Part shown: in pieces, positions 49,831 through 64,000 of the stretch
How positions within the stretch are numbered: position 1 is the stretch's first letter
Layout of the letters: each line of letters starts with the position of its first letter
DNA from: a virus
Direction: 5' to 3' (one strand)
DNA: 64,000 nt
IMG/VR virus record: IMGVR_UViG_3300042540_000949
Coordinates: 15,061-79,060 of that record
Made by a program: the position numbers and the translations under genes
Notes under the pieces: model-generated
What the model saw: only the letters and a program-made list of their open reading frames with translations
Database searches by the model: none
Told to the model about the DNA's origin: nothing

Positions 49831-49835
49831 ATGAA

Positions 49836-49847
49836 TATTTATAAATA
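49836..49847. promoter_or_regulatory. Palindromic bidirectional late promoter TATTTATAAATA
   Basis: T4 late consensus TATAAATA on both strands, ATG 5 nt away on each side. Confidence 0.75.
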
Positions 49848-49852
49848 CTTTT

Positions 49853-50386
49853 ATGGATTATTTGGCTAATTATTACAAAAATCTTTGTGAACAACTTCAA
49901 GGGAGAATTGATCTTCTTGAGGCTGGTCTTAAAACAGCCTTACGAACAAAAGATACAGCCCTTCTTCGAAGAGAACAACTAAAAGCACAGGCCAGAGAAG
50001 AACGAGGTTTGGAATCCGTAGAAGTAGCAGGAAGAAGAACATCCCAAGCAGTGCAAACTTATGGTGCATCAAGCAACGAGGCTGCTCTCGCATACGACCA
50101 ACAAAATAGAGCACACACATCAAGATTACAAGTGCTTGCAAACCTCACAGACATAGAAAGAAAAATGGAAGAGCCATCTTCGGTAGCCGAAAGAGTTTGG
50201 AGCAACAAAAAACCTTTGGCCCAGATGACTGACGAGGAAGCCTACCGCCATGGTCAAGACATGGCCAGAATTCAATCGGTAACACCTCATCCAGACATGT
50301 TCAAGAATCCACACTTCCATAAAGGATTCCAAGATGCATTGTCTTTGTCTTCTTCAAGATCCACCACCGGGTCACAACCATATTAA
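49853..50386 (+). CDS. Putative internal head protein
   Basis: N-terminus MDYLANYYKNLCEQLQ..I..LE shared with next ORF; late promoter. Confidence 0.55.
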   Translation: MDYLANYYKNLCEQLQGRIDLLEAGLKTALRTKDTALLRREQLKAQAREERGLESVEVAGRRTSQAVQTYGASSNEAALAYDQQNRAHTSRLQVLANLTDIERKMEEPSSVAERVWSNKKPLAQMTDEEAYRHGQDMARIQSVTPHPDMFKNPHFHKGFQDALSLSSSRSTTGSQPY

Positions 50387-50401
50387 TAAAATAGGAAAAT
50401 T

Positions 50402-51568: not shown

Positions 51569-51590
51569 TCATACAAAGATTTAAAAGAAG

Positions 51591-51621
51591 AAACGGGTCC
51601 CCCCAAAAGGGACCCGTTTTT
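51591..51621 (+). terminator. Intrinsic terminator
   Basis: AAACGGGTCCC-CCCAAAA-GGGACCCGTTTTT. Confidence 0.85.
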
Positions 51622-51640
51622 CGTTGGGCCCGAATTATTC

Positions 51641-51668
51641 TTGACTTTGAAAAACTGAAAGATATACT
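51641..51668 (+). promoter_or_regulatory. 16-bp-spacer promoter (TTGACT-16-TATACT)
   Basis: -35 51641-51646, -10 51663-51668, ATG 51677. Confidence 0.65.
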
Positions 51669-51676
51669 TGATCCAA

Positions 51677-52198
51677 ATGTGCGACCAAGTAAAATATTGC
51701 AATAAATGCAAGAGAACACTTCCGTTGGCTACCTCTTTTCATAAAAGAAGTAATAGAAAGAATGGTTACAAGTCAATTTGCAAGGAGTGTCAAAAAAAAT
51801 ATCCTAGATCAAAACAATGTGCCATTAACAAAAGAAATTATCAGAAAAAAAGATATCACGAAGATCAACAGTACAATATATCCAAAAAATTTAGAAGAAA
51901 GGTAAGAAAAATTTTAAAACTATTTTTGGAAGGAAAATTAAAATCAACAAAAGATCAACACCGTGATTATCTGGGATGCTCAATAAGTTACTACAAAGAT
52001 TATATTGAGTCAAAATTTCAAGAGGGAATGACTTGGGAAAATTATGGTGTTCATGGTTGGCACCTAGATCACATCATTCCATGTACAGCATTTGACCTGA
52101 CAGATCCCGAACAGATCAAAAAATGCTTTCACTACACCAATACACAGCCACTGTGGGCAAAAGACAATATAAACAAATCAAATACCATTCCGGTCTAA
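51677..52198 (+). CDS. Free-standing HNH (endonuclease VII-like) nuclease
   Basis: N-terminal CxxC...CxxC; GMTWENYG, WHLDHIIP, HYTNTQPLW..DN..K. Confidence 0.88.
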   Translation: MCDQVKYCNKCKRTLPLATSFHKRSNRKNGYKSICKECQKKYPRSKQCAINKRNYQKKRYHEDQQYNISKKFRRKVRKILKLFLEGKLKSTKDQHRDYLGCSISYYKDYIESKFQEGMTWENYGVHGWHLDHIIPCTAFDLTDPEQIKKCFHYTNTQPLWAKDNINKSNTIPV

Positions 52199-52261
52199 TC
52201 CCGTTTTTATTCTAAGAACGCCGTATAAGCGATCCTAGCACGATAGAAAGGGTTTTAAATA

Positions 52262-52366
52262 TCAACCCTTGACCAGATTGACGACCAAAATTACGACGCA
52301 GAGGCCGAGAGTGATCCAAGGGAGTGTGAGGTACTTGTTCTTAAAATTTTGAAATTTTTGTAGCAT
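52262..52366 (-). CDS. 34-aa single-TM membrane peptide
   Basis: Manual ORF MLQKFQNFKNKYLTLPWITLGLCVVILVVNLVKG; TAAATA at 52388-52383 and AAGGA SD. Confidence 0.5.
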   Translation of the reverse strand: MLQKFQNFKNKYLTLPWITLGLCVVILVVNLVKG

Positions 52367-52406
52367 AAAGTTTCCTTTTTAGTATTTAGGGATAGGGATG
52401 TGGGAA

Positions 52407-52541
52407 GGGACCCAAAAAGGGACTCGTAAAGAGCCTCACATGGGACCCAATTTTCTGGGACTCCAGAAGGGACTCCAAAGAAGGGACCCAAAAAGGGACC
52501 CAGAATATTCAAAAATATTTGAGAATATTTGAGAATTTTGA
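52407..52541 (+). repeat. Seven GGGAC(C/T)C direct repeats followed by four AT-rich 10-mers
   Basis: GGGAC at 52407, 52419, 52442, 52457, 52469, 52483, 52495; GAATATTCAA/AAATATTTGA/GAATATTTGA/GAATTTTGA at 52503-52541. Confidence 0.85.
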
Positions 52542-52700
52542 GGGGTGTGTGGCTAGCCCGACGATTCTTTAAGATTTCTAGGGGGGCCCCATTTCACTGT
52601 TCTGGACCTTGACACATCGACTCCCCCCTCTCACCATACCACAAGCCCCCACCACTAGGGTGAGGGCTCGGGCTTCCGGGGGATCTGTCAAGTCAGCTCT

Positions 52701-52895
52701 TCACATCTCGCCCCATCCCGCACTGGCCAGCCAGTCGTTGTCCGCGTCCCAGTCCTCGCGGGTCATCTGACCGCAGGCGTCAGCGAACGCATCGTTGTCC
52801 GCGTCGCGTTCGATGTCCTCCATGTTTGAGCAGTTCGGGCAGGCACGGTCATCATCGAATCCGCAGTCGCAGTCACGGTTGGGGGTGTTGGTCAT
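52701..52895 (-). CDS. Small acidic Cys-containing early protein
   Basis: Promoter TTGACA(52930)-17-TATCAT-6-ATG; C-terminal DWLASAGWGEM. Confidence 0.7.
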   Translation of the reverse strand: MTNTPNRDCDCGFDDDRACPNCSNMEDIERDADNDAFADACGQMTREDWDADNDWLASAGWGEM

Positions 52896-53010
52896 GCCCG
52901 AATGATACCACACCCTGGCAGATGTGTCAACCTACATGGTCGAAAGATTTCAAGATTTCTGCCGGCCCCATTGGTTGACACATCCCCGACCATCGGATAC
53001 AATCCGTCCC

Positions 53011-53418
53011 ATGAAGATCCCCGCCCTGCTCATCCCGGCTGATATCACCCGCCCCATGACCACCGTGGAAATCGACACCGACTGCGGCAACCTCGCCTCG
53101 CTCATCGGCTGCGACCTCGTTACGGTTGTCCGTCCCTCCGCGTCCCTCCGCAACATGGTCGATGGCGACTGCACGGTGTGGGTCGATGACGAGGGGCTGC
53201 TGCGCGAGAACCCCCGTCAGAACATCCGGGCGTTCCTGATGACCGAGCAGCACCTCGTCGGCAATGCTCTCCTCACGGGCGTTGACAACGCAGCAGGCAC
53301 GATCACCCCGCTCCAGTTCGTGCTGCCTGCCTGCACCGTCCTGAACATCATCGAACAGAACGCGCAGGGGCTGCACCGCATCTATGCGGCCATCGACGCG
53401 GCCAACGCCAACGCTTGA
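53011..53418 (+). CDS. DUF3846-like early protein
   Basis: LIGC..V, WVDDEGLL, N..A, LVGNALL.G; promoter 52975-53003. Confidence 0.8.
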   Translation: MKIPALLIPADITRPMTTVEIDTDCGNLASLIGCDLVTVVRPSASLRNMVDGDCTVWVDDEGLLRENPRQNIRAFLMTEQHLVGNALLTGVDNAAGTITPLQFVLPACTVLNIIEQNAQGLHRIYAAIDAANANA

Positions 53419-53449
53419 CACATCCCCGCCCATCAGGTACAATCCTCCC

Positions 53450-53782
53450 ATGCACACCACCCGCTCCTCCATCGCCCTCCCCGTCGCCGCCAACACCGCC
53501 CGTCGCTACGACGAGGCCATGACCTACCTCGCCAACGGGTGGGTCGAGCTGACCTACCGCAAGGTGGGCGGCGAGGTGGTGACGCGCCTCGCCACGCGCA
53601 ACCCCACGCTCATCGACACCTTCGGTGATCGTTGGTCGCTTGAGGCGGTGCGGAAGTCCGACGATCCGTGGGGCGACAACATCGTCTACTGGGATCACGC
53701 AAAGGGCGGCATCCGCTCCTGCCGCGCCGACGAGGTCGTGGGCATGGCGATCCCCGGCGACTGCCCGGAGGTCAACCACTAA
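53450..53782 (+). CDS. WYL_2 (DUF2693)-like protein
   Basis: V.LTYRK..GE...R.ATRN, YWD..KGGIRSC; promoter 53415-53443. Confidence 0.75.
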   Translation: MHTTRSSIALPVAANTARRYDEAMTYLANGWVELTYRKVGGEVVTRLATRNPTLIDTFGDRWSLEAVRKSDDPWGDNIVYWDHAKGGIRSCRADEVVGMAIPGDCPEVNH

Positions 53783-53819
53783 GGTTGACACATCCCGCCT
53801 CTCACGGTACAATCCTCCC

Positions 53820-54035
53820 ATGACCATCACCCCCGCCGACAACCCCTGCAACTGCCGCGCCTGCGGTGCCCTCATCCTCAACGAAGTGTCCTCGTTGTGC
53901 GAGGACTGCGAGGCCGATATGAACGCCTACTACGATGAGCGCGAGGACGCAGAGCGCGACCGTCAGATGACCGAGGACAACTACATCCGCGAGAACTACG
54001 AAACCCCCATCGGTGAGCTGTACGGGGGAGACTGA
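53820..54035 (+). CDS. Small acidic CxxC...CxxC protein
   Basis: CRACG...CEDC; promoter 53785-53813. Confidence 0.7.
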   Translation: MTITPADNPCNCRACGALILNEVSSLCEDCEADMNAYYDEREDAERDRQMTEDNYIRENYETPIGELYGGD

Positions 54036-54040
54036 GCCAA

Positions 54041-54106
54041 GGGTGCATGGGATAGCCGAAAAGGATTCGTCCCTGCTCCGATTCGTTCGGAGCTAGGCTC
54101 CCACCC
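54041..54106 (+). ncRNA. Candidate structured RNA (three-way junction, TTCG loops)
   Basis: GGGTG..GGGA.AGCC / GGCTCCCACCC closing stem; GGA-TTCG-TCC; GCTCCGA-TTCGT-TCGGAGC. Confidence 0.35.
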
Positions 54107-54238
54107 AAGCCCAGGTCAACCAGGTCGAACCCCGGACAGGACGCAGAAACTTCAAACCGTTTGCTTGACACATCCCACCCGATACGGTACAATCACCGTA
54201 ACACCCAACCGCCCCATAGGGGCAAAGAGACTGAACCC

Positions 54239-54610
54239 ATGCCGACCGACTACACGCAGCCCGTCACCCTCGTCCGCCTCGCTCACCCCACGAACCCCTC
54301 CATCGTTGAGTTCGCGTACACGCCCCGCTACTCGCGGTGGACGATGCTGAAGTTCAACCCCGCGAAGGCGCAGACGGCATCGGACGCTTGGATCCGCTAC
54401 TGCGAGGACAACCTGTTCAAGCCCTCGCACTTCGATTCGATCAGCCACGGGGCGACCAACCTGTTCCACACCGACATCCTGAAGATCGTCGGCCACCTCA
54501 CCCTGAACGGGTGGCAGATCACGCAGAACCGCCCGTACAACGGGCCGAGCGGGTACTACGAGTGCAACGCTGCGGCAGCAGCGGAGAGCGAAGACCTCGT
54601 CCTGTTCTGA
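54239..54610 (+). CDS. Hypothetical early protein (leadered)
   Basis: Promoter 54165-54193; leader hairpin GCCCC-ATA-GGGGC; GC3-biased frame. Confidence 0.7.
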   Translation: MPTDYTQPVTLVRLAHPTNPSIVEFAYTPRYSRWTMLKFNPAKAQTASDAWIRYCEDNLFKPSHFDSISHGATNLFHTDILKIVGHLTLNGWQITQNRPYNGPSGYYECNAAAAAESEDLVLF

Positions 54611-54702
54611 TCCACGGTCTAGGAACGGAGGGGGGCCGGGGCGTTCCCGGTTCCCCTCTCCCTTCCCTTGACACATCACCCCGAACCTGATACCATCCAC
54701 CC

Positions 54703-54915
54703 ATGAAGAACGAAACCCTCTGCATCATCTCTGCCGTGTCCCTCTTGGCCCTCGCAGCCGTGATTGAGTATGCCCCTGCTTTCAGCGGGATTGAGCGGTG
54801 GATGAACCGCAACCCCGTTTGGATGCTTGGCATCCTCGCAGTCTGCTTGATCCCGTTTGGAATCGGCCTCTACCGTCAGGTCATCACCCCCATCCTCGTC
54901 AACCGGAAGGGTTGA
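54703..54915 (+). CDS. Small two-TM membrane protein
   Basis: Promoter 54668-54696; two hydrophobic segments. Confidence 0.7.
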   Translation: MKNETLCIISAVSLLALAAVIEYAPAFSGIERWMNRNPVWMLGILAVCLIPFGIGLYRQVITPILVNRKG

Positions 54916-54946
54916 CTCATCACCCCCAACCAGGTACAATCCCACC

Positions 54947-55147
54947 ATGCCCTCTCTCTCCACCAGAAACCTCGTCAGCCACTACCTCGTCATCGGCACG
55001 GACAACGAAGGAAACTTCCGCCGTCTGAAGGTGTTCACCCGAGCTGATGCCGAGGTCATCGGCAGCACCTACATGATCCGCGCCCGTGTGTGGGCCGTCA
55101 ACCCCCACGGCAAGAAGCGTCTAGAGCGTCGATACGTTTCGTATTGA
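54947..55147 (+). CDS. Small basic early protein
   Basis: Promoter 54912-54940, ATG 6 nt later. Confidence 0.7.
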   Translation: MPSLSTRNLVSHYLVIGTDNEGNFRRLKVFTRADAEVIGSTYMIRARVWAVNPHGKKRLERRYVSY

Positions 55148-55178
55148 CACATCACCCCGAACCTGATACCATACACCC

Positions 55179-55436
55179 ATGAGCAATCCCAACACCAACC
55201 CCGCATTGGATCGCATCCGTTCCTACACCATCATCCACGCCACCGCCCTGCGCGAGTGGGTGAACGACAGCCCGACCGACTCCCGCAGCGCCGAGCTGAT
55301 GGAGATCGTCCGAGACTGCGAGAGGAACTACCTGATCCTCGCCCTGTTCCGGACGATGGAGCCGACGCTCGCAGACTTCAACGATGCGTTCGACGCATTC
55401 TGCGCCGCAGCGGATCAGGCGATCACGAACAACTAG
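55179..55436 (+). CDS. Hypothetical early protein
   Basis: Promoter 55144-55172 (29 nt identical to 54668-54696). Confidence 0.72.
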   Translation: MSNPNTNPALDRIRSYTIIHATALREWVNDSPTDSRSAELMEIVRDCERNYLILALFRTMEPTLADFNDAFDAFCAAADQAITNN

Positions 55437-55522
55437 GGTGGTTGGGACGGGGGAGACTCCCAGGGTGCGGAGTCTCCCCCAACACCCTTGACACAACCTC
55501 CAACACAGGATACAATACTCAC

Positions 55523-55786
55523 ATGACAACCACCGCAATCAAGACCGCCCGTGAACTTCGCGCCTCCCTCTCCACGGGGGCCGTCTGCCTCGTCGCCTTC
55601 CGCAAGATCAGCGGCGAGATCACCGAGCGCTACATCACCCGCAATCAGGACTACATCCCCGAGGATGCGCGTCCGCAGTATGTGAAGGCCGAGAACCCCC
55701 ACTACATCACCGCATGGGATGTGGAGGGAAAGCATTGGATTTCCTTCCACGAATCGAACGCCCTCGCGTGGGAAGAGCATCAGTAA
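55523..55786 (+). CDS. WYL_2 (DUF2693)-like protein
   Basis: VAFRKISGE..ER..TRN...IP, AWDVEGKHWISF; promoter 55488-55516. Confidence 0.78.
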   Translation: MTTTAIKTARELRASLSTGAVCLVAFRKISGEITERYITRNQDYIPEDARPQYVKAENPHYITAWDVEGKHWISFHESNALAWEEHQ

Positions 55787-55824
55787 GCCTTGACACATCC
55801 GCACCCCAACGGTACAATACACCC

Positions 55825-56097
55825 ATGACCACCCGAACCACCAAGCAGGATCTTGAACTCCGCGTCGAAAACCTCCGCAAGATGACGGGTAGGAAGTTCT
55901 ACCTGACGGGAGCCTACGGAGGCTGGCAGTTGGCCGAGGAGGTCGATGGCGGAAGCCACGGCATCACCCCCGGATTCGTGAGCAAGCGCCAACTGGAAGA
56001 TCGCCTGAACTCCATCCTCACCGGGCTGCTCATCGGGGAGCGGATGGAGAAGGAGCGCAAGCGCCGCGAGGACGAGCACCCCTATGCGTACAACTGA
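55825..56097 (+). CDS. Hypothetical early protein
   Basis: GAYGGWQL, GFVSKRQL; promoter 55790-55818. Confidence 0.72.
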   Translation: MTTRTTKQDLELRVENLRKMTGRKFYLTGAYGGWQLAEEVDGGSHGITPGFVSKRQLEDRLNSILTGLLIGERMEKERKRREDEHPYAYN

Positions 56098-56266
56098 ATC
56101 GCCCCAGGCGAACATCCGCCTTGCGATCACCTTGTGCCGAGACATCCGGCACATCCTCGCATCCCGAAACTTCCCTTCCAAGAATCTTCAGGAGCGAGTC
56201 CGCAAGGCAATCGAACGGGTGTCGCAGACGGAAGAAGAAATCGAAAACCTTGAAGTCGGTGCTTGA
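56084..56266 (+). CDS. Hypothetical 60-aa protein
   Basis: Overlaps previous stop; its TGA lies in the next -35 box. Confidence 0.6.
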   Translation: MRTTESPQANIRLAITLCRDIRHILASRNFPSKNLQERVRKAIERVSQTEEEIENLEVGA

Positions 56267-56297
56267 CCCAACCCCCCGGACAAGATACAATCAACCC

Positions 56298-56522
56298 ATG
56301 CTATTCGACAAACTCAATCAGTCAGGGATTCACCGTGGCGTGTTCGCCGTCCTGCTTGGCATCATGTGGCTCATGCCCGTAGTGCTTGGATGGATCGCCT
56401 ACGAAGCTGCTCACCACCACATGAAGATCCTGCTTGGGTTCTGTGCGGTGGGATGCCTGCTTGAACTCTACGCGATCACCTTCCTGCTTGGGGGCCTGAA
56501 GTTCATTCGCTCACGGGCTTGA
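56298..56522 (+). CDS. Small two-TM membrane protein
   Basis: Promoter 56263-56291; hydrophobic segments. Confidence 0.7.
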   Translation: MLFDKLNQSGIHRGVFAVLLGIMWLMPVVLGWIAYEAAHHHMKILLGFCAVGCLLELYAITFLLGGLKFIRSRA

Positions 56523-56553
56523 CACATCCGGAAAGAAAGAATATAATCCGGAC

Positions 56554-56691
56554 ATGAACCACAGGCCGGCAAAGTTCGTACACGACGCCTTCCGCGAAGG
56601 GCAGCGGCTCCGCTCCAAGACTTGGGGAAAGAAGAGCCGCTGCCCTCGGAAGGACAGGCGCGAGGCACGGAAGGAGCTGCAGCGGGCCTGA
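56554..56691 (+). CDS. 45-aa basic peptide
   Basis: Manual ORF MNHRPAKFVHDAFREGQRLRSKTWGKKSRCPRKDRREARKELQRA behind TTGACA-17-TATAAT (56519-56547). Confidence 0.65.
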   Translation: MNHRPAKFVHDAFREGQRLRSKTWGKKSRCPRKDRREARKELQRA

Positions 56692-56835
56692 ACTACTATC
56701 AGGCGGCTCAGAACACTAGGATGGTACAAAGACCTTGGATGGTGCGGGGCCTGATAGTAGCTCCCCGCGACCTGGACGGCACTCAGCCGGTCATCGGACG
56801 GCACACAAAAACTTCAAAAACTTTGCCCATGTCAC
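56692..56835. repeat. Inverted-repeat module, copy 1
   Basis: CTACTATCAGGC 56693-56704 / GCCTGATAGTAG 56749-56760; ATCGGAC 56793. Confidence 0.8.
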
Positions 56836-56870
56836 TTGACGTATCCAGCTCTACCCCTTATACTACGCAC

Positions 56871-57083
56871 ATGGATCACACCCCCTACGACGATGCGACC
56901 GAGGAAATCACCCGAGAGGAGGCCATCCGTGAACTCATGGATGAAGGCTACTCGCGTGACGAGGCTACCCGCATGATCGGGGACTACGAGGCTGATGAGT
57001 ACGAGCCCAAGTACCTGTCGGACTTCCCCGATGAGTGGTCTGATGACATTGCCCTGTTCGTTGACCCGGAGGACTTCGAATGA
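56871..57083 (+). CDS. Highly acidic 70-aa protein (DNA-mimic candidate)
   Basis: 26 D/E versus 5 K/R; promoter 56836-56864. Confidence 0.72.
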   Translation: MDHTPYDDATEEITREEAIRELMDEGYSRDEATRMIGDYEADEYEPKYLSDFPDEWSDDIALFVDPEDFE

Positions 57084-57382
57084 TCTGCATTCGCATGAAG
57101 TACCTGCACACTCCAATCGCCAACCAAAGCTGGAAGCGCAGGCGTGAGCGGGAGATTCTTCGCATCGTGACGGGAGCCGTGGCATATGCGTTCGTGGCCC
57201 GTGACTTTCCCCGAACGGAGGCCCAGTTCGACTGCAAGCAAGGATTCGCCCTCACTTCCATCCGGGTGTTCGTGGACGGGATTGACGAGGAGATGGCCAA
57301 GCGTGTCGTGAACTACCTGAACAACAACAGGAATGTCTACGCAAACTACTTGACGCAACCCGAACTATGTGATACCATGTGA
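57080..57382 (+). CDS. Hypothetical protein
   Basis: ATGA coupling to the previous gene. Confidence 0.6.
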   Translation: MICIRMKYLHTPIANQSWKRRREREILRIVTGAVAYAFVARDFPRTEAQFDCKQGFALTSIRVFVDGIDEEMAKRVVNYLNNNRNVYANYLTQPELCDTM

Positions 57383-57384
57383 CC

Positions 57385-57615
57385 ATGCACCGACCCAAGA
57401 ACCCAACCACGACCAATGTGAGCGACCTCATCAATGCGATGTGGAAGTTCACGGACGAGAACCCGATGTGGTACGAGAACCGCGATCAGTTGTCGCGGGT
57501 GTCCGCAGCGTGGAGCATCCTCACCAAGATGTGCGAACCGCTTGACTTGACGGAGGAAGAGTACGCCTTCGTCACCGGAATCTTTGAGACTTGCAAGGAG
57601 AACGAACTGCCATGA
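57385..57615 (+). CDS. Hypothetical early protein
   Basis: Promoter 57350-57378, ATG 6 nt later. Confidence 0.68.
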   Translation: MHRPKNPTTTNVSDLINAMWKFTDENPMWYENRDQLSRVSAAWSILTKMCEPLDLTEEEYAFVTGIFETCKENELP

Positions 57616-57965
57616 ACCCGCAAAACGACTTCGACAACTTCTTCACGGACGAGAACCACCCCGCCATGAACTTGGCCAAGCCGACCCCGGAAGCGGTGTT
57701 GGAAGCCCTGATCCGGGTGGTGGGCCTGCGTCCCTTGTGGTACCGGGATCCGACCCTGCGCCTGATGGTCGTGAAGGGGCTGGACTTTCTGACGCAGGAA
57801 CTTCACGCTGCCCTTGAGCGTGGCGAGAAGCCCACCGTCGATCTGATCGGTGCAGCCTTCTGCATGGTGCTTGCGGAGAGGATCGAATCGTCCAAGCGAT
57901 TCGCCTCCCCGGAAGAGGAAAAGTGGTCGCCCAAGATGGACAATCACCCGCAGGACAACGAGTGA
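57612..57965 (+). CDS. Hypothetical protein
   Basis: ATGA coupling; GC3-biased frame. Confidence 0.65.
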   Translation: MNPQNDFDNFFTDENHPAMNLAKPTPEAVLEALIRVVGLRPLWYRDPTLRLMVVKGLDFLTQELHAALERGEKPTVDLIGAAFCMVLAERIESSKRFASPEEEKWSPKMDNHPQDNE

Positions 57966-58006
57966 CTTGACAGCACCGTGTCCCCCCGGTTATAATAGGG
58001 GGATGA

Positions 58007-58079
58007 GCCTCTGTGGCGCAGCTGGTAGCGCAGTAGACTTTTAATCTATTGGTCGTGGGTTCGAACCCCACCGGAGGCA
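58007..58079 (+). tRNA. tRNA-Lys(UUU)
   Basis: Acceptor GCCTCTG/CGGAGGC, anticodon loop CTTTTAA, GGTTCGAACC; no encoded CCA. Confidence 0.93.
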
Positions 58080-58081
58080 TT

Positions 58082-58609
58082 ATGAACGACGAGATCGAAC
58101 AACTCAAGAAGAAGATCGCCTACCTTGAGGAACAAGTAGACCGATGGGAAGATGATGTCCTGCGTCTGATGAAGGAACGCAACGAAGCACGGAAAGAGGT
58201 TTGCCTTTGGCAAGGACTTGATACAGGAAAAAAGTCCGAAGAAGTTGCTAATGTTCGTGGTTGGGATTGTTTCAACCAACCCAAAACAGAACAGGACAAG
58301 GCAATGGATCGCCTCGCAGAACTTGATGAGGAACTTGGTCTGAACCCCATTCCGGAATCTCACTACATCAAGACCCTTCAGGCATATGATCGCCTCGCCA
58401 TCGTCATGGAGGCCATCATGGAACATTGGTTGGAAGGCAATGCCAACCCACCGAAGGAACTCATCGATGCCTATTACGATGTCAAGGAGGACATCAACGA
58501 CCATCTGAACGTGGATCGTCTGCATGAGCAGGTGATCCCGGCGAACTCTGAATTTTACGACAAAATTCAGAAAAAGTTTTCTGTTGACGACACCCCGAAT
58601 CTGTGGTAG
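58082..58609 (+). CDS. Hypothetical coiled-coil protein
   Basis: ATG 2 nt after the tRNA-Lys discriminator; ERNEARKEVC..RGWDCF; stop TAG forms the next -10. Confidence 0.7.
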   Translation: MNDEIEQLKKKIAYLEEQVDRWEDDVLRLMKERNEARKEVCLWQGLDTGKKSEEVANVRGWDCFNQPKTEQDKAMDRLAELDEELGLNPIPESHYIKTLQAYDRLAIVMEAIMEHWLEGNANPPKELIDAYYDVKEDINDHLNVDRLHEQVIPANSEFYDKIQKKFSVDDTPNLW

Positions 58610-58619
58610 AATGTGTTAC

Positions 58620-58704
58620 GGGATTGTGGCGGAATCGGCATACGCAGCAGACTCAAAATCTGCCGACCCTTAAAGTCTTGTGGGTTCAAGTCCCACCAAT
58701 CCCA
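58620..58704 (+). tRNA. tRNA-Leu(CAA)
   Basis: Acceptor GGGATTG/CAATCCC, loop CTCAAAA, long variable arm, GGTTCAAGTCC. Confidence 0.93.
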
Positions 58705-58707
58705 TTT

Positions 58708-58781
58708 GTTCTCGTAGCTCAGTTGGATAGAGCAGCCGCCTTCTAAGCGGCAGGTCGTTGGTTCGAATCCAACCGGGAACG
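58708..58781 (+). tRNA. tRNA-Arg(UCU)
   Basis: Acceptor GTTCTCG/CGGGAAC, loop CTTCTAA, GGTTCGAATCC. Confidence 0.94.
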
Positions 58782-58817
58782 CTTGACAGACCCCGAAAGA
58801 CAGGATACAATACACCC

Positions 58818-58991
58818 ATGAGCAAGACCAAGACCAAGAACCAAACGATCTCTGAAAAGTTGACTCGCATCGATGATTATGTCTGCGACATCTGGAACGA
58901 TGTCGATGAAGGCAGGCTATCCCCGAATCAGATCGGGGATCGACTTGACAAGGTCATCAGGATGCTTGGCGAACTTCAGGATTCCCTGTGA
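58818..58991 (+). CDS. Hypothetical 57-aa protein
   Basis: Promoter 58783-58811, ATG 6 nt later. Confidence 0.68.
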   Translation: MSKTKTKNQTISEKLTRIDDYVCDIWNDVDEGRLSPNQIGDRLDKVIRMLGELQDSL

Positions 58992-59098
58992 GGACACACA
59001 TGAATATTATATAAGGAGTGTTTGGTGGAAACATCAAAAACCGCACAGAGGCATTCTGCGAATGCACGGTTGACCGCTAGCCGTACAACTAGCGATTC

Positions 59099-59174
59099 GG
59101 GAAGGTGGCTGAAAAGTAGTTAGAGCGCGTGCCTTATAAGCGCGAATATGTGGGTGCAACTCCCGCCCTTCCCA
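59099..59174 (+). tRNA. tRNA-Ile(UAU) with atypical T-loop
   Basis: Acceptor GGGAAGG/CCTTCCC+A, stem CGTGC/GCGCG, loop CTTATAA, T-loop TGCAACT. Confidence 0.78.
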
Positions 59175-59210
59175 TTTGACACAACCCCAAACAGAGAGTA
59201 GAATATAACC

Positions 59211-59510
59211 ATGCCAATCGCACTACCAAAAGAAGAATATCTCGCCCCGCAGATCTTCTCATCGTTCATGATCGAAAACAACGATCTCATCGTCCGCGTC
59301 GAAGAGCCCTTCGGCATCATTGAGATGGATCTGTCGTTTGCTGTCCGTCTGGATCCCAAGACTGGCTTGGCGTCCACGGACTCAGATGACATTCTCTTTT
59401 CCATTGCCGATGACTCGGAAGGCAATGAGCATGAGGTAGACCCGGATTGGGTTATGGGTTGGATCATCCGCACCCTGAACCCATACCTCCGCGAGAAGTT
59501 CTCCGTCTGA
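59211..59510 (+). CDS. Acidic hypothetical protein
   Basis: Promoter 59176-59204, ATG 6 nt later. Confidence 0.72.
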   Translation: MPIALPKEEYLAPQIFSSFMIENNDLIVRVEEPFGIIEMDLSFAVRLDPKTGLASTDSDDILFSIADDSEGNEHEVDPDWVMGWIIRTLNPYLREKFSV

Positions 59511-59548
59511 CACTTGACACAACCCCGAACAAGAGGTACAATACACAC

Positions 59549-59833
59549 ATGGAAATGACCTTCGACACATCTTACTTCGGTTGGATTCTCGCAGTCTCTT
59601 TCGGTCTGTACATGGTGTATCGCCACATCATGAACAGGATGCATGAACTTCAGCGTTCCCTCCACGACGATATGCGTGGGAACATGGAGTACGGCAAGGA
59701 GGAAATGGAGTTCATCCGCAATCGCATCGACGGCATTGAGCGCAGGATCTCCACCCTTGAGGTGGCTCCCAAGCCGCAGAGCAAGGACAAGGCTCCCTAC
59801 AACTCAACCGCCTACTACAACACGGAAGCCTGA
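59549..59833 (+). CDS. Protein with N-terminal TM segment and coiled coil
   Basis: Promoter 59514-59542; YFGWILAVSFGLYMVY. Confidence 0.72.
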   Translation: MEMTFDTSYFGWILAVSFGLYMVYRHIMNRMHELQRSLHDDMRGNMEYGKEEMEFIRNRIDGIERRISTLEVAPKPQSKDKAPYNSTAYYNTEA

Positions 59834-59859
59834 CCCGCTACCAGGCTTCCTCTCATAAC

Positions 59860-59896
59860 CAGGGACTCCCACGCTTCGGGGAGTCCCTGTTCTTTT
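59860..59896 (+). terminator. Intrinsic terminator
   Basis: CAGGGACTCCC...GGGAGTCCCTG-TTCTTTT. Confidence 0.85.
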
Positions 59897-59906
59897 ATAT
59901 TCTTTT

Positions 59907-60060
59907 ACTACTATCAGCCAGCCTTAAGGCTGGCTGATCTTTCGCATGGACGGCAAGGACAATAATAATATTCTGAGTTGATTGATAGTAGCTCTGGGAC
60001 TTGGGACCTGGTGCCGGTTATCGGACGCAAAACAATCTTCAAAAATATCGAAGAAGTTTG
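59907..60060. repeat. Inverted-repeat module, copy 2
   Basis: ACTACTATCA 59907 / TGATAGTAG 59983-59991; 26-bp perfect palindrome 59913-59938; ATCGGAC 60020. Confidence 0.8.
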
Positions 60061-60095
60061 TTGCAGCATCCCCGGAAATGTCGTACCATATGCGT

Positions 60096-61370
60096 ATGAG
60101 CAACATCGACAACCGTAAGGCAAACTTCCTCGCAGCCCTGAAGCAGATCGCAGGCGAAGCGACCAGCGTGGCCGATGCCATCTTCAGCCGTGACGATTGC
60201 ATCACCGCCTGCCGTGACTCCGCTGCGCCTGCCTACACCGTCCTTCCTGCTTGGCTCGTCCAAGACCCGTCCCGCCGCGCAGGTCGCGGCCTATACAGAA
60301 TCCCGGAAATGGTTTCCGTGGAAATCGAAACGGACGGGATGGAAGATTCGTCCGAAAGTTCCTTGACCGATCCCCAAACTTGTGATACCATTACGAACAT
60401 GAGCAGCAGCAACTACAACCTCGTCGCATCCATGCCCGATGTCTCCCTCGTCCCGATGAAGAACGACACTTTCGTTCCGTGGGGCCACTACGATGACATC
60501 AGCACCATCCTCGCGTCCAAGCAGTTCGCGCCCGTCTACATCACGGGTCTGTCGGGCAACGGCAAGACCACGATGATCGAACAGATCTGCGCCAACACCG
60601 GGCGTGAGTGCATCCGCGTCAACATCACTGCCGAAACCGACGAGGACGATCTCATCGGCGGCTTCCGACTCATCAACGGCGAAACCAAGTTCGTCTACGG
60701 TGGCGTGGTTCAGGCCATGCAGCGCGGTGCCGTCCTGCTGTTGGACGAGATCGACTTGGGGACGGAGCGGATGATGTGCCTTCAGCCCGTGCTTGAGGGC
60801 AAGGGAATCTTCATCAAGAAGATCGGCGTTTTCGTCAAGCCCGCGCAGGGGTTCAATGTGGTCGCCACGGCCAACACGAAGGGCAAGGGCGAGTCTGATC
60901 GGTTCGTCGGCACCCGCTGCTTGAACGAGGCGTTCGTGGATCGGTTCTCCTATTGGTTTGAGCAGGAGTACGCGGATCGCAACATCGAAGCGCGCATCAT
61001 CATCCGCAAGATGAAGGCGTATGGCAAGGAGGACAAGGAGTTCGCGCAGTACCTCGTCAAGTGGGCGGAAACGATCCGCTTGGGCTTCAAGGAGGGCGGC
61101 TTGGATGACATCATCACGACCCGCCGCTTGGAGGAGGTCTGCAAGGCGTTCGCCATCTTCAACGACAAGCAGAAGGCGATCAAGTTGACGCTCACGCGAT
61201 TCGACGGTGCTACGCAGGAGGCGTTCTTCACCCTCTACACCAAGATCGACCCGACGATCCTCCCGACCCCGGAGGGGATGGACAAGAACAACCTCGGCCC
61301 GTCCGAAGCCTATCGTGCAGAGCAGGCGAATCAGAATCCGCCTGACACCAACTACGCCCTCAACGCCTAA
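60096..61370 (+). CDS. MoxR/CobS-like AAA+ ATPase with an N-terminal accessory domain
   Basis: GLSGNGKT, RVNIT.ETDEDDLIGG, LLLDEID, ATANTKG.G, NEAFVDRF, TRRL; promoter 60061-60089. Confidence 0.92.
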   Translation: MSNIDNRKANFLAALKQIAGEATSVADAIFSRDDCITACRDSAAPAYTVLPAWLVQDPSRRAGRGLYRIPEMVSVEIETDGMEDSSESSLTDPQTCDTITNMSSSNYNLVASMPDVSLVPMKNDTFVPWGHYDDISTILASKQFAPVYITGLSGNGKTTMIEQICANTGRECIRVNITAETDEDDLIGGFRLINGETKFVYGGVVQAMQRGAVLLLDEIDLGTERMMCLQPVLEGKGIFIKKIGVFVKPAQGFNVVATANTKGKGESDRFVGTRCLNEAFVDRFSYWFEQEYADRNIEARIIIRKMKAYGKEDKEFAQYLVKWAETIRLGFKEGGLDDIITTRRLEEVCKAFAIFNDKQKAIKLTLTRFDGATQEAFFTLYTKIDPTILPTPEGMDKNNLGPSEAYRAEQANQNPPDTNYALNA

Positions 61371-61388
61371 AGAAAGGAGGAACCAACA

Positions 61389-61616
61389 ATGCCGTACATG
61401 AACAAGCGCAATCGTTTCATCGCTGCTGCCAAGCAGTACGCAGAGGCAAACCTGAACGGAGACTTCAGCAACTTCAAGAAGTCCGATCTCATGGTTGTGG
61501 CACAGTCCATCAACATGAAGGGAATCCCGACTTGGGTTGTCAAGGAGTACGCGAGTGCCGTGAGCCGTGGGATCTACGATCTCTCGTCGCTCATCAACAA
61601 CACCGCAACCGTCTGA
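61389..61616 (+). CDS. Stand-alone paralog of the AAA+ N-terminal domain
   Basis: NKRNRFIAAAKQ...IPTWVV...SRGIYDL versus NRKANFLAALKQ...LPAWLV...GRGLYRI; AAGGAGG SD. Confidence 0.75.
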   Translation: MPYMNKRNRFIAAAKQYAEANLNGDFSNFKKSDLMVVAQSINMKGIPTWVVKEYASAVSRGIYDLSSLINNTATV

Positions 61617-61677
61617 GCTGTTGCCATGAGGGGAGGGGCGGACTAAACATCCCCCCTCCCCATTCGCAGGAATAAAA

Positions 61678-61765
61678 TCCGTTGGAGCTAAACTACACCC
61701 TCTGGGTGACGGCTAGCCTAATGCTCCCGAAATGCTTGGTGTTCTGCAGCACCAGGTTGAACGGA
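61678..61765 (+). ncRNA. Candidate multi-stem structured RNA
   Basis: TCCGTT/AACGGA enclosing GGAGC/GCTCC, CACCC-TCT-GGGTG and TGGTG/CACCA. Confidence 0.35.
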
Positions 61766-61783
61766 AAGGAACGGAGCCTTTCC

Positions 61784-61809
61784 CCCCGGATTCTTATCCG
61801 GGGTTTTTT
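61784..61809 (+). terminator. Intrinsic terminator
   Basis: CCCCGGA-TTCTTA-TCCGGGG-TTTTTT. Confidence 0.85.
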
Positions 61810-61812
61810 ATT

Positions 61813-61965
61813 ACTACTATCAGCGGGTCTCTAAGGACCCGCTGATTCTCGCAGGACACGAAATAATTTTAAGGACGCTCCCTGATAGTAGCTCGTACCT
61901 GCGCCTGGAGTTGCCGGCCAGCTTATCGGACTCACAAAAAAACTTGTAAACTTCGACTATGTGGG
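61813..61965. repeat. Inverted-repeat module, copy 3
   Basis: ACTACTATCAG 61813 / CTGATAGTAG 61882-61891; inner stem 61819-61846; ATCGGAC 61925. Confidence 0.8.
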
Positions 61966-62000
61966 TTGCAGCTTCCCCCGATATGTGCTACCATATGCGT

Positions 62001-64000
62001 ATGAACACCTCTCTCTCCATCTTTGCCCGTGCCCTCGCAAGCGAGAACCTGACCTTCGCGTTCGACCCGAAAGCGGAGACTGCTTCGTTCGATGTCAAGG
62101 CGCGGCACCTCGTCATGCCCATGTGGGATGTCTCCGACACCCTCCGCACCATGCTCGTCGCGCATGAGATCAGCCACGCGCTGTGGACTCCCTACGAGGT
62201 GTCCAACCGTCTGTTTGAGGCGGCGACCGCAGAGGGATACAACGAGAAGTTGCTGCACCACATCTGCAACATGATTGAGGATGTCCGCATCGAAAAGTTG
62301 ATGAAGGTGAAGTACCCCGGTACGCGCCGCGACTTCTTCTTGGGCTACCGCGAGATCATCGACAAGAATCTTTTCAACCTTTCCGGGTTGGATTGGAACA
62401 AGGTGGACATGATCTCCCGTCTGAACGGCCACTTCAAGTGGGGCGTTCCGGGCTTCCTCACCATCCCGCTGACCGACGAGGAGCGGGACATTGCCGAATT
62501 GGTGGACGGGGTTGAAACCTTTGAGCAGGCGTTTGAACTTGCCAAGTTCCTCTACGGCCACCCGTCGATGGAGAAGGCGCGTCAGCGGTTTGAGGCGGAA
62601 GCGCAGGACATTGGGAACGGCAAGGGCAAGGGCAAGGGCGACGAGGAGGGTGAGACTCAAGAGGGTGACGGTGGCACCGACCTGACCAACATGGGCGGCG
62701 CGTTTGCCCGGAAGAACGGCGAGACTGTCACCATCGACAACATCACGATCAGCCCCCTCGCTGACTTCGGCAAAGCGATCATCAGCGCGGACAAGATCCG
62801 CGAGAACTACGGGCGCATCTACAACCACATGAACCGCAACATCGACCTTGACGGCTACCGCAAGTATGTCAAGGAGTCCGATGCGTTCGTCCGTCAGTTG
62901 GTCGCGCAGTTTGAGCGCCGCAAGGCAGCGGACGAGATCCGCCGTGAGCGCCCCAAGCAGACGGGGATGCTCAACCTTGACCGCCTGCACCAGTACCGCA
63001 CCCACGATGACATCTTCCTCTCCAAGATCATCAAGCAGGACGGGAAGAACCACGGCATCATGTTCCTCATCGACTTCTCCGGGTCGATGGGATCAACCAT
63101 CGGCAATTGCATCCATCAGGTGTTGCAGTTGGTGTGGTTCTGCGAGAAGGCCAAGATCCCGTTTGAGGTCTACGGCTTCACGAACCTCGGGCATTGGGGC
63201 TTTGAGGCGCAGATGGAAGCGGAGCGCAAGGCGTACATGGACGCGAACCCGGATGACACTTGGGGCAACGGCTTCCGCAGCCCGACCGTGAACCTCGTCG
63301 CCATGAACCCCAAGCCCAACAGCATCCACTACGGGGATGCGCGGCTCATCAACCTCGCATCGTCGCGTGACTCCGCTGCGGATCGGGAGCGCCTGTTGGC
63401 CTGCTTGTGGGAGCAGTATTGCGCGGGTACTGGTGTCTGCTGCATTCCCTTCGGTGGCACTCCGACCGTGGAATCCGTTGCCATCGTCAGTCAGGTGATG
63501 AAGAAGTGGGTGGAGGCGAACGACATTCAGATCCCGACCCTGATGGTCGTTACCGATGGTCAGCCCGGTGGGATCTACACGGAAGATCGTTCCTGCTGCC
63601 ATGCGTTCATCAACAGCAACCACGGGCTCTGCGTCACCAACGAAATCTTCGGGACGGTTCACTACTCCGATGGTTCCGCCAACGAGATCGACATTCCCAA
63701 CGCCATCATCGGCACCATGCTTGACTCCCTGCGGACGGGATTGAACGCCCGCTGCGTCGGAATGTATGTGGATCACTCCCGCAAACTTTCGGAGCATATG
63801 TTCCGTTCCATGTGCGTCACCCGCAAGGAGTACCGGGAGCAGATGAACAGCCGCCAGTACGCATACGATTCGATTGACGAAAGCCCCCGCTACGAGGCGT
63901 GTTCGGAGCAGTACGAAAGCGGTGCGCTGATCCTGCCCAAGTCCACCTACCCCGGATACGATGCGTACTTCCTCATCCGCAGCATGAAGGCGGTGAGCGA
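62001..64000 (+). CDS. CobT-like metallopeptidase/VWA-domain protein (partial, runs off window end)
   Basis: Manual translation MNTSLSIFARALASENL...HEISHALWTP...N.IEDVRIE...IDFSGSM (MIDAS)...GGTP...TDG; promoter 61966-61994; missing from ORF track. Confidence 0.9.
   Translation, partial: MNTSLSIFARALASENLTFAFDPKAETASFDVKARHLVMPMWDVSDTLRTMLVAHEISHALWTPYEVSNRLFEAATAEGYNEKLLHHICNMIEDVRIEKLMKVKYPGTRRDFFLGYREIIDKNLFNLSGLDWNKVDMISRLNGHFKWGVPGFLTIPLTDEERDIAELVDGVETFEQAFELAKFLYGHPSMEKARQRFEAEAQDIGNGKGKGKGDEEGETQEGDGGTDLTNMGGAFARKNGETVTIDNITISPLADFGKAIISADKIRENYGRIYNHMNRNIDLDGYRKYVKESDAFVRQLVAQFERRKAADEIRRERPKQTGMLNLDRLHQYRTHDDIFLSKIIKQDGKNHGIMFLIDFSGSMGSTIGNCIHQVLQLVWFCEKAKIPFEVYGFTNLGHWGFEAQMEAERKAYMDANPDDTWGNGFRSPTVNLVAMNPKPNSIHYGDARLINLASSRDSAADRERLLACLWEQYCAGTGVCCIPFGGTPTVESVAIVSQVMKKWVEANDIQIPTLMVVTDGQPGGIYTEDRSCCHAFINSNHGLCVTNEIFGTVHYSDGSANEIDIPNAIIGTMLDSLRTGLNARCVGMYVDHSRKLSEHMFRSMCVTRKEYREQMNSRQYAYDSIDESPRYEACSEQYESGALILPKSTYPGYDAYFLIRSMKAVS

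What the first reader, a model, noticed from the sequence alone, without database searches (positions are those of the whole stretch)
52200..64000. Compositionally bipartite genome: GC-rich early genes, AT-rich core, and early tRNAs for AT-rich codons
Seen: GC rises abruptly near 52.55 kb (by eye about 25-40% to about 60%). Right of it codons end almost only in C/G. The four tRNAs there read AAA, TTG, AGA and ATA; AAA, AGA and ATA are abundant in the AT-rich genes and scarce in the GC-rich ones. gp23, gp22, gp32 and the 40288 gene look intermediate. Inference: the host is high-GC; first-expressed genes match its tRNA pool, then phage tRNAs enable translation of an AT-rich genome, so codon usage acts as a timing layer. 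Against a chimera: WYL_2 paralogs, leaderless starts, GGGAC(C/T)C and the ACTACTATCA half-site occur on both sides.
Basis: partly seen in the sequence, partly recalled or inferred. Interest (0 to 1): 0.72.

Follow-up and report, generated by a model that had tools for sequence, protein, structure and literature searches.

The report
GC-rich early-gene island in AT-rich phage
An uncultured lake phage related to T4 keeps one block of about 12 kb of small host-polymerase-driven genes and four tRNA genes at about 60% GC inside a genome of about 37% GC. This is a real, inherited two-codon-regime genome, not an assembly error, but why it is kept that way is still inferred.

Summary
GC rises from 0.39 to 0.63 between window 52.3 and 52.7 kb and stays at 50-65% to the contig end. 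GC3 is 0.80 on the right and 0.30 on the left.

It is not a chimera:
- Independently built contigs of two lake runs cross the step.
- At least five diverged IMG/VR relatives (CobS 71-78% identical) show the same step at the same gene junction. Where the contig runs on, GC falls back about 4.5 kb past the CobS start.
- One 137-kb relative has T4-type head genes on one side of its island and the DNA polymerase on the other.

The island holds about 20 one-gene units. Each has a near-consensus sigma-70 promoter and an ATG exactly 6 nt after the -10 box, so the mRNAs are leaderless with unstructured 5' ends. It also holds tRNA-Lys(UUU), Leu(CAA), Arg(UCU) and Ile(UAU), and a CobS/CobT-like pair. 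AAA, AGA and AUA are 10-11 times rarer in the island than in the rest of the genome.

GC3 stayed at 0.82-0.92 while four-fold sites diverged 30-43%, so the composition is maintained, not a fresh import.

However, the host, the timing and the selective cause are not shown. This scan had already noted the same island in two other genomes.

The parts
49853..51568 (+). Two AT-rich genes (177 aa and 388 aa; GC3 0.32 and 0.24) that are the conserved left neighbours of the island
   Evidence: Homologues lie directly left of the GC step and stay at 25-47% GC: the 177-aa gene in L002, L003, L005, L007 and L008, the 388-aa gene in L002, L003 and L007. No Pfam family.
51668..52198 (+). Endonuclease VII / HNH-like gene (GC3 0.32), last AT-rich gene before the step
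   Evidence: phrog_1035, E 1.3e-16. No homologue at this place in nine relatives, so it is probably a mobile insertion.
52407..52501 (+). Array of 7 direct GGGAC(C/T)C copies at the left edge of the island
   Evidence: A similar cluster (5 copies in 150 bp) lies just left of the step in L002 only. Function unknown.
52550..64000 (+). GC-rich island (50-65% GC, GC3 0.80), cut by the contig end; in relatives it ends about 4.5 kb after the CobS start
52701..52930 (-). First island gene (64 aa, Cys-rich, GC3 0.79) with its own leaderless promoter, divergent from the + strand array
   Evidence: Promoter TTGACA-17-TATCAT, then 6 nt, then ATG at 52895. Homologues at 36-75% identity in L002, L003, L007 and L008 are all 62-67% GC.
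52975..60391 (+). 19 near-identical sigma-70-type promoters (TTGACA, 17-18 bp C-rich spacer, TACAAT-like box). 15 are followed by an ORF of 45 aa or more whose ATG lies 6-7 nt after the -10 box
   Evidence: 29 promoter-like sites vs 6.2 +/- 2.1 in shuffles. Listing and spacing. The first 40 nt of the ORFs fold at -2.3 vs -9.4 kcal/mol for internal windows, p = 4e-10, and G is 16% vs 29%. The same architecture is present in the islands of L002, L003, L004, L005, L007 and L010.
53011..53782 (+). DUF3846 protein (53011-53418) and WYL_2 protein (53450-53782), GC3 0.86 and 0.92
53820..57965 (+). About 13 small ORFs (45-125 aa), mostly without any family; a second WYL_2 protein at 55523-55786
   Evidence: The conserved ones stay at 53-65% GC in relatives.
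58007..59174 (+). tRNA-Lys(UUU), tRNA-Leu(CAA), tRNA-Arg(UCU) and tRNA-Ile(UAU), with promoters at 57967 and 58584 placed 7-10 nt before the tRNA 5' ends
   Evidence: The same four, in the same order, occur in L002, L003, L004, L005/L089, L007, L008 and L010.
60096..61370 (+). CobS-like AAA+ (AAA_5, phrog_249) gene, GC3 0.82, with an internal leaderless promoter at 60363-60391 giving a 323-aa form
   Evidence: The internal promoter is conserved in L003, L004, L005 and L007.
61959..64000 (+). CobT-like 'peptidase' (phrog_459) gene, GC3 0.83, open at the contig end
59860..59992 (+). Terminator hairpin followed by a box-hairpin-box element (ACTACTATCA ... inverted copy). Like elements lie at 56692-56761 and 61784-61892
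   Evidence: In run X4 a contig carries 81 other letters between 61808 and 61883.

Best explanation
Window 52.55-64.0 kb is the larger part of a roughly 12-kb immediate-early module of an uncultured freshwater T4-like myophage. CheckV completeness for the contig is 44%, which implies a full genome of roughly 180 kb.

Shown:
- The module is native to the phage lineage.
- Its GC-rich composition has been held while synonymous sites turned over.
- It consists of single-gene units with strong host-type (sigma-70) promoters that put the ATG at the predicted transcript start, with G-poor, unstructured 5' ends.
- It almost lacks AAA, AGA, AUA and UUA codons.
- It contains, behind the same promoters, tRNA genes that read AAA, AGA, AUA and UUG, codons that are abundant in the AT-rich remainder.

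Inferred mechanism: on entry, unmodified host RNA polymerase transcribes the island. Its leaderless mRNAs are translated with the host's own tRNA pool because their codons match a host of clearly higher GC than the phage bulk. The co-transcribed phage tRNAs then build up (further ones for CCA, GAA, CAA and GGA lie downstream in relatives) and allow efficient translation of the AT-rich replication and virion genes. The genome thus combines, in two compartments, the two known strategies of matching the host's GC and of keeping low GC while importing tRNAs.
For: One genome:
- A Logan contig of run X1 spans 51096-54570 with no mismatch. In the independent run X2, contigs span 52092-52755 and 52732-53846.
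- IMG/VR relatives from other metagenomes (L002, L003, L005, L007, L008) step from 33-45% to 60-68% GC about 7 kb before CobS. L003-L007 and L010 fall back to 40-48% about 4.5 kb after the CobS start.
- The left neighbour genes are syntenic and stay AT-rich.
- G002, G003 and G005 carry the head protein (77-79% identical) and CobS on one contig.
- G003 is about 35% GC except at 81-93 kb, and has RNR, gp41-like helicase, UvsX and DNA polymerase beyond the island.
- The head protein, CobS and the CobT-like protein all hit the same cyano/pelagi T4-like group.

Maintained composition: CobS core GC3 is 0.82-0.92 in ten clade members, with four-fold-site differences of 0.30-0.43. Early ORFs diverged to 30-80% identity are still 53-67% GC.

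Early and leaderless.

Codon/tRNA split. The relative's extra tRNAs all have U34 anticodons except Tyr.

Host GC-richer than the phage bulk (inference): pelagimyophages of an AT-rich host have 0-2 tRNAs (PMC7029224). Low-GC cyanomyophages of high-GC hosts carry tRNAs for their own AT-rich codons (PMC3152331).

Relevance: loss of a host tRNA for an AT-rich codon blocks the AT-rich phage Syn9 (PMC11726456).
Against: - The host is unknown, so 'host-matched' is untested.
- There is no expression or 5'-end data.
- The GC rise is not confined to synonymous sites. Non-coding DNA is 0.52 vs 0.365, promoter spacers are 0.59, and GC1 is +0.11. This is what a general GC pressure would also give.
- Sigma-70-driven genes outside the island have GC3 of only 0.32-0.44, so a host promoter does not by itself go with high GC.
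- Caulobacter phage Cr30 (37.8% GC; its host is about 67% GC, from my own knowledge) has no such island, so the arrangement is not required for a low-GC T4-like phage in a high-GC host.
- UUA is the most skewed codon, yet the island's Leu tRNA reads UUG.
Confidence: 0.5

Rival explanations
1. DNA-level selection for high GC rather than for codons. The part of the genome that must be read by unmodified host RNA polymerase is kept GC-rich so that host xenogeneic silencers, which coat AT-rich foreign DNA (H-NS, MvaT, Lsr2, MucR types), do not shut its promoters. Later genes are read by phage-redirected polymerase and need no such protection.
For: - Non-coding DNA and promoter spacers of the island are also GC-rich (0.52 and 0.59 vs 0.365).
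- The island is exactly the block with the dense host-type promoters.
- Silencers of AT-rich DNA exist in proteobacteria, actinobacteria and alphaproteobacteria, and T4 makes an early H-NS-interacting protein (papers listed: PMC4466236, PMC5693944, PMC7827196).
Against: - The largest shift is at third codon positions (+0.50 vs +0.16 in non-coding DNA).
- Other sigma-70 promoters work in AT-rich surroundings of the same genome (48633, 51641, 40571).
- No silencer or host is known here.
- This does not explain why the tRNA genes sit in the island.
Confidence: 0.15
2. A non-adaptive local bias. The 20-odd near-identical promoter cassettes make the island a recombination hot spot between co-infecting genomes, and GC-biased repair of heteroduplexes (or transcription-linked mutation) drives the whole block to high GC. 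The codon/tRNA split is then a by-product.
For: - All site classes are raised in the pattern of an ordinary genome of about 60% GC.
- Gene content of the island is mosaic among relatives, as expected of cassette shuffling.
- PeSL cassettes are known shuffling sites in T4-type phages (PMC2839356, PMC4122927).
- Several other CobS-bearing T4-like lineages show GC bumps of varied height.
Against: - GC-biased conversion has not been shown in phages (my own knowledge).
- CobS and the CobT-like gene, long genes with no cassette repeats except one internal promoter in CobS, are as GC3-rich (0.82-0.83) as the shuffled small ORFs.
- The boundary is sharp and sits at the same gene junction in relatives.
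- The first 40 nt of the ORFs show clear selection on sequence, so selection does act on these sites.
Confidence: 0.12
3. The island is a block recently taken from a GC-rich phage or host and not yet ameliorated.
For: - Atypical composition.
- A mobile-type endonuclease VII/HNH gene right at the left edge.
- Many ORFans.
Against: - The island is present at the same locus in all close relatives, with four-fold sites 30-43% diverged and GC3 unchanged.
- Its largest genes group with T4-like phage CobS and CobT-like proteins, not bacterial ones.
- The endonuclease gene is unique to this genome.
- No close relative was found in 185,579 species genomes.
Confidence: 0.05
4. Assembly chimera of an AT-rich and a GC-rich phage.
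For: - Contig depth is 1.3-2 times higher on the GC side in four runs. In X1 it changes (11.5 to 19.6) at a contig break near 51.1 kb.
- The contig is incomplete.
Against: - Contigs of two runs bridge the step.
- Five diverged relatives have the same junction.
- A 137-kb relative has T4-like genes on both sides.
- The depth change in X1 lies 1.4 kb left of the GC step.
Confidence: 0.02

Closest known systems
Low-GC T4-like cyanomyophages that keep their own tRNA genes ('adaptation' strategy; Limor-Waisberg et al. 2011, PMC3152331), and T4's own tRNA set
   Same: A T4-like phage of low GC carrying tRNAs (Arg-UCU, Ile-UAU, Lys-UUU and others) for A-ending codons that it uses heavily. The head, CobS and CobT-like proteins are closest to this phage group.
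   Different: Those genomes are described as uniformly low-GC. Here a 12-kb block follows the opposite ('specialisation') strategy inside the same genome and houses the tRNA genes. No psbA/psbD was found in five partial genomes of the lineage.
Temporal codon-usage differences between early and late phage genes (Mioduser, Goz and Tuller 2017, PMC5683454)
   Same: [quoted passage not shown]
   Different: Those are statistical shifts. Here the split is a physical, sharply bounded compartment with GC3 of 0.80 vs 0.30, and the temporal class is only inferred from promoters.
PeSL (promoter-early stem-loop) cassettes of hyperplastic regions in T4-type phages (Arbiol 2010, PMC2839356; Comeau 2014, PMC4122927)
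   Same: Repeated early promoter elements separate small, variable, mostly unknown genes. Gene content is mosaic between relatives.
   Different: Those papers do not describe leaderless starts or a GC-rich compartment. Here most units have no stem-loop that I could show, and the promoter-to-ATG spacing is fixed.
Host-takeover modules of SPO1 and pre-early region of T5 (from my own knowledge)
   Same: A contiguous block of many small genes, each with a strong host-type promoter, expressed first.
   Different: Those lie in long terminal repeats. This phage has a T4-type terminase and its ends are unknown. No compositional contrast is known there.
Tail-end comparison: Caulobacter phage Cr30 (T4-like, 37.8% GC)
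   Same: A low-GC T4-like phage. Its host is listed as Caulobacter crescentus CB15; that this host is about 67% GC is from my own knowledge.
   Different: Cr30 has only three GC-rich spots of 1-2 kb and no island.

Membership tests
T4-like myophage (cyano/pelagimyophage-related) | gp23-type major head protein, gp20-type portal, gp17-type large terminase | tested here: met
   phrog_138 E 3.6e-146, phrog_213 E 4e-189, terminase phrogs. The head protein is 53% identical to P-HM2, Syn33 and S-RSM4 gp23.
T4-like myophage (cyano/pelagimyophage-related) | T4-type replication genes on the same molecule | tested here: met
   In relative G003: DNA polymerase phrog_262 E 8.6e-257, UvsX, DnaB-like helicase and RNR. 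In the window's own genome: SbcC-like gp46 and a helicase.
T4-like myophage (cyano/pelagimyophage-related) | Late promoter of the TATAAATA type before late genes | tested here: inconclusive
   Many structural genes have (C/A)TAAATA 6-10 nt before the ATG, by eye. There are only 8 exact TATAAATA in the genome. No statistics were done.
Cyanophage | psbA/psbD (Photo_RC) gene | tested here: not met
   0 of 5 records (44-76% complete) have PF00124. The fragments are incomplete, so absence is not proven.
Phage tRNA compensation for a GC-richer host | Phage tRNAs read codons over-used by the phage | tested here: met
   AAA, AGA and ATA rank 2-4 of all codons by bulk/island ratio; p = 0.004.
Phage tRNA compensation for a GC-richer host | Those codons are rare in the host and host GC exceeds phage GC | not testable with these tools
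   Host unidentified. Genome-contig scans were empty. Relatives cannot be drawn for a virus record.
PeSL cassettes | Composite of a terminator stem-loop and an early promoter repeated between small genes | tested here: inconclusive
   The promoter repeat is met. Terminator-like hairpins were found at only a few units (59860, 61784), and box-hairpin-box elements at three.
Horizontally acquired genomic island | Patchy presence among close relatives and foreign phylogenetic affinity | tested here: not met
   Present at the same locus in all close relatives. CobS and the CobT-like protein are nearest to T4-like phages.
Assembly chimera | No independent sequence spans the junction | tested here: not met
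   Contigs of X1 and X2 span it. Relatives share it.
Terminal-repeat pre-early module (T5/SPO1 type) | Block lies in a long direct terminal repeat (two-fold depth, defined ends) | not testable with these tools

The most novel reading that the evidence does not exclude
The lineage runs a programmed two-stage translation regime written into base composition. A host-codon, leaderless, host-promoter 'boot sector' needs nothing from the phage and includes the tRNA genes. These then unlock an AT-rich genome that the host alone translates poorly. This would also defeat host resistance based on shutting off tRNAs for AT-rich codons (as in Synechococcus WH5701 against Syn9), and possibly silencing of AT-rich DNA. 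GC bumps around CobS in several other T4-like lineages would then be weaker versions of a widespread, undescribed strategy.
Probability: 0.35. Interest if true: 0.8.

Novelty: new variant of a known kind. Interest (0 to 1): 0.62.

Why it matters
Phage tRNAs and early/late codon differences are known, but as diffuse statistical effects. Here the two regimes are separated into sharply bounded compartments, with a 50-point GC3 gap held over long divergence.

That makes an old question directly testable in nature: does codon usage time or gate phage gene expression, and do phage tRNAs matter? The island and the bulk of one genome serve as built-in controls.

It also matters in practice. Binning, host prediction by composition and chimera filters will split or discard such genomes.

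The dense set of consensus, leaderless, single-gene promoters is a clean natural system for studying leaderless translation.

Tried and rejected
- Single-protein scans of viral contigs with the 388-aa gene and the DUF3846 gene found no relative. The CobS alignment was needed.
- blastn of the junction against isolated phages gave only 55-65-bp chance-like hits.
- Host search: an exact tmRNA pattern and the CobS alignment against 185,579 species genomes found nothing.
- psbA/psbD and ribosomal protein S21 were not found in five partial genomes. This gives no firm host clue.
- Cr30 was tested as a possible cultured example and has no island.
- Depth: only contig-mean depths were available. The higher depth on the GC side cannot be assigned to GC-dependent sequencing bias, to co-occurring genotypes that share the island, or to a repeat. 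Parts of the stretch without cover in X2-X4 say nothing.
- Position-specific GC cannot separate codon selection from general GC pressure, because the island's profile equals that of an ordinary genome of about 60% GC.
- Seven literature searches found no description of such an island. The library is incomplete, so this is not proof of novelty.

Full report
**What the sequence is.** The window is the last 64 kb of a single 79,060-bp viral contig. CheckV rates it 44% complete. It encodes a T4-type major head protein, portal, large terminase, tail fibre and tail proteins, an SbcC-like nuclease and a helicase. The head protein is 53% identical to gp23 of cyanomyophages. The DNA occurs in lake-water metagenomes: 20 runs from 18 study codes hold parts of the junction stretch, though several may belong to one campaign.

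**The observation.**
- GC is 25-50% up to 52 kb and 50-65% from 53 kb to the end. At 200-bp resolution it climbs from 0.39 to 0.63 between 52.3 and 52.7 kb.
- Codon-position GC is 0.45/0.36/0.30 on the left and 0.56/0.41/0.80 in the island. Non-coding GC is 0.365 vs 0.52.
- AAA, ATA and AGA are 10-11 times more frequent per codon in the AT-rich part than in the island; TTG is 1.8 times more frequent. A random set of four codons matches this with p = 0.004.

**Not a chimera.**
- Logan contigs, built independently of the deposited assembly, cross the step. In X1 one contig covers 51096-54570 without a mismatch. In X2, from another study, contigs cover 52092-52755 and 52732-53846.
- A CobS alignment (A1) pulled 80 IMG/VR loci. 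The nine closest (CobS 67-78% identical) come from other metagenomes. Wherever the contig reaches far enough, they show the same picture: 33-45% GC, a jump to 60-68% about 7 kb before CobS, then a fall to 40-48% about 4.5 kb after the CobS start.
- Three of these contigs (91-137 kb) also carry the head protein at 77-79% identity.
- The full profile of the 137-kb contig is about 35% GC, with one 12-kb block of 51-62%. It has RNR, helicase, UvsX and DNA polymerase on the far side.
- The genes left of the step are homologous and AT-rich in the relatives. The island genes that are shared are GC-rich in all of them.
The WYL_2 copies are about 22% identical. GGGACYC is significant only as the 7-copy array at 52407-52501. 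The ACTACTATCA word has one copy on the AT side.

**Anatomy of the island.**
- Promoter-like sites are 29 against 6.2 +/- 2.1 expected. Nineteen on the + strand share TTGACA, a C-rich spacer (17 bp in all but one, 18 bp there) and a TACAAT-like box.
- Fifteen of these are followed by an ORF of 45 aa or more whose ATG lies 6 nt (twice 7 nt) after the -10 box. This is where transcription should start.
- The first 40 nt of these ORFs are G-poor (16% vs 29%) and almost unstructured (-2.3 vs -9.4 kcal/mol, p = 4e-10). This is the known requirement for leaderless translation (PMC8459731, listed).
- A divergent unit of the same kind starts the island on the minus strand.
- Two copies of the promoter sit 7-10 nt before tRNA-Lys and tRNA-Leu/Arg.
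- Apart from DUF3846, two WYL_2 proteins, the CobS-like AAA+ ATPase and the CobT-like protein, the ORFs have no family. This is typical of phage early genes.
- The same promoters, spacing, four tRNAs and internal CobS promoter recur in the relatives.

**Maintained, not imported.**
- Over 282 shared codons, CobS has GC3 of 0.82-0.92 in ten clade members, while four-fold sites differ by 30-43% from the window's copy. GC at positions 1 and 2 is the same (0.45) as in AT-rich relatives.
- CobS and the CobT-like protein are nearest to T4-like cyano- and pelagimyophages.
- So resident phage genes have been held at high GC3 at this locus.
- More distant CobS-bearing T4-like contigs show bumps of varied height (L015, L020, L022, L025, L029, L032). 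Marine low-GC ones show almost none.

**Interpretation.**
The island is a host-dependent first-expressed module whose codons suit a host GC-richer than the phage bulk. It carries the tRNA genes that then serve the AT-rich genes.
- Indirect support for a GC-richer host: the relative G003 has nine tRNAs, eight of them with U34 anticodons or reading codons scarce in the island. Myophages of AT-rich SAR11 have 0-2 tRNAs. Low-GC cyanomyophages of high-GC hosts carry just such sets.
- Loss of one host tRNA for an AT-rich codon is enough to block Syn9, so the pressure is real.
- The host is unidentified, and no RNA data were available.
- The island's profile across site classes is that of any genome of about 60% GC. 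Codon selection, selection on GC as such (for example escape from silencers of AT-rich DNA) and a local GC-biased process therefore cannot be separated here.
- Cr30 shows the arrangement is not obligatory.

**Host clues (leads only).**
- Four of five relatives encode a permuted tmRNA about 12 kb beyond CobS. From my own knowledge, this type is found in Alphaproteobacteria, some Betaproteobacteria and some cyanobacteria.
- Most genes lack a Shine-Dalgarno sequence, and late genes also start within about 10 nt of a TAAATA box.
- There is no psbA/psbD and no S21 gene.

**Depth.** In all four runs, contigs on the GC side have 1.3-2 times the depth of those on the AT side. In X1 the change (11.5 to 19.6) falls at a contig break near 51.1 kb, 1.4 kb left of the GC step. 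With contig means only, this cannot be resolved. It does not overturn the bridging evidence.

**Prior notes of this scan.** Two follow-ups on other genomes (e1-5993934, e1-5785836) reached the same reading for related lake phages. Notes on this genome list the leaderless cassettes, the internal CobS promoter and the box-hairpin-box elements. I re-derived each point used here from this window.

**Verdict.** The finding is an extreme, compartmentalised variant of known phage codon/tRNA adaptation. The mechanism is plausible but unproven.

Noticed in passing
window 46001-57434 (runs X1-X4): Contig depth is 1.3-2 times higher right of about 51.1 kb. In X1 it changes from 11.5 to 19.6 at a contig break at 51096-51117, and X4 also breaks at 51009-51019, inside the 388-aa gene. 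This could be a variable spot in that gene, GC-dependent coverage, or genotypes sharing the island.
   Followed up: partly
L090:1335-1613(-) (= G003:101335-101613); also L100, L101, L102: Relatives encode a permuted (two-piece) tmRNA (RF04321, 75-82 bits) with predicted tag ANIKAAPMRMAA, next to tRNA-Tyr, about 12 kb past CobS. It is present in 4 of 5 relatives. The window's contig ends before that point.
   Followed up: partly
window 1-10785; G003 24-31 kb: A second compositional compartment: a block of about 11 kb at 25-31% GC (GC3 0.09-0.24), on the minus strand, also present in the 137-kb relative at 23-27% GC. Earlier notes call it a glycan gene island.
   Followed up: partly
window, many late genes (e.g. 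14598, 27325, 29865, 32652, 34378): Structural genes have a (C/A)TAAATA box only 6-10 nt before the ATG, and most genes lack a Shine-Dalgarno sequence. Late mRNAs may therefore also be leaderless or nearly so.
   Followed up: partly
window 60363-60399: A full leaderless promoter inside the CobS gene would give a 323-aa form lacking the N-terminal 100 residues. It is conserved in L003, L004, L005 and L007.
   Followed up: partly
window 56692-56761, 59907-59992, 61813-61892: Three box-hairpin-box elements (ACTACTATCA and its inverted copy 60-76 bp apart). In run X4 a contig replaces the 74 bases between 61808 and 61883 with 81 other letters, so the inner part varies between strains while the boxes stay.
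   Followed up: partly
window 51668-52198: An endonuclease VII/HNH-like gene at the left edge of the island has no counterpart at this locus in nine relatives. It is probably a homing-type insertion.
   Followed up: partly
window 47564-48633(-): An IMPDH/GMP-reductase-family gene (PF00478, E 1e-67) on the AT side has a sigma-70 promoter with the ATG 7 nt after the -10 box. It is a leaderless unit outside the island, with GC3 0.44.
   Followed up: no
window 58584-58620: tRNA-Leu begins 7-8 nt after the -10 box. Its primary transcript would start at or one base before the mature 5' end and need little or no RNase P trimming.
   Followed up: no
L015, L020, L022, L025, L029, L032 (IMG/VR): Other, more distant CobS-bearing T4-like contigs (CobS 47-54% identical) also have 8-14-kb GC bumps of 15-25 points around CobS. 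The trait may be widespread in uncultured T4-like phages.
   Followed up: partly
L092-L098 (Caulobacter phage Cr30) about 8-9 kb, 34-36 kb, 73-74 kb: Cr30 is uniformly about 37% GC, with three GC-rich spots of 1-2 kb (54-61%). One covers an annotated beta-1,4-xylanase gene. These look like recent host-derived insertions.
   Followed up: no
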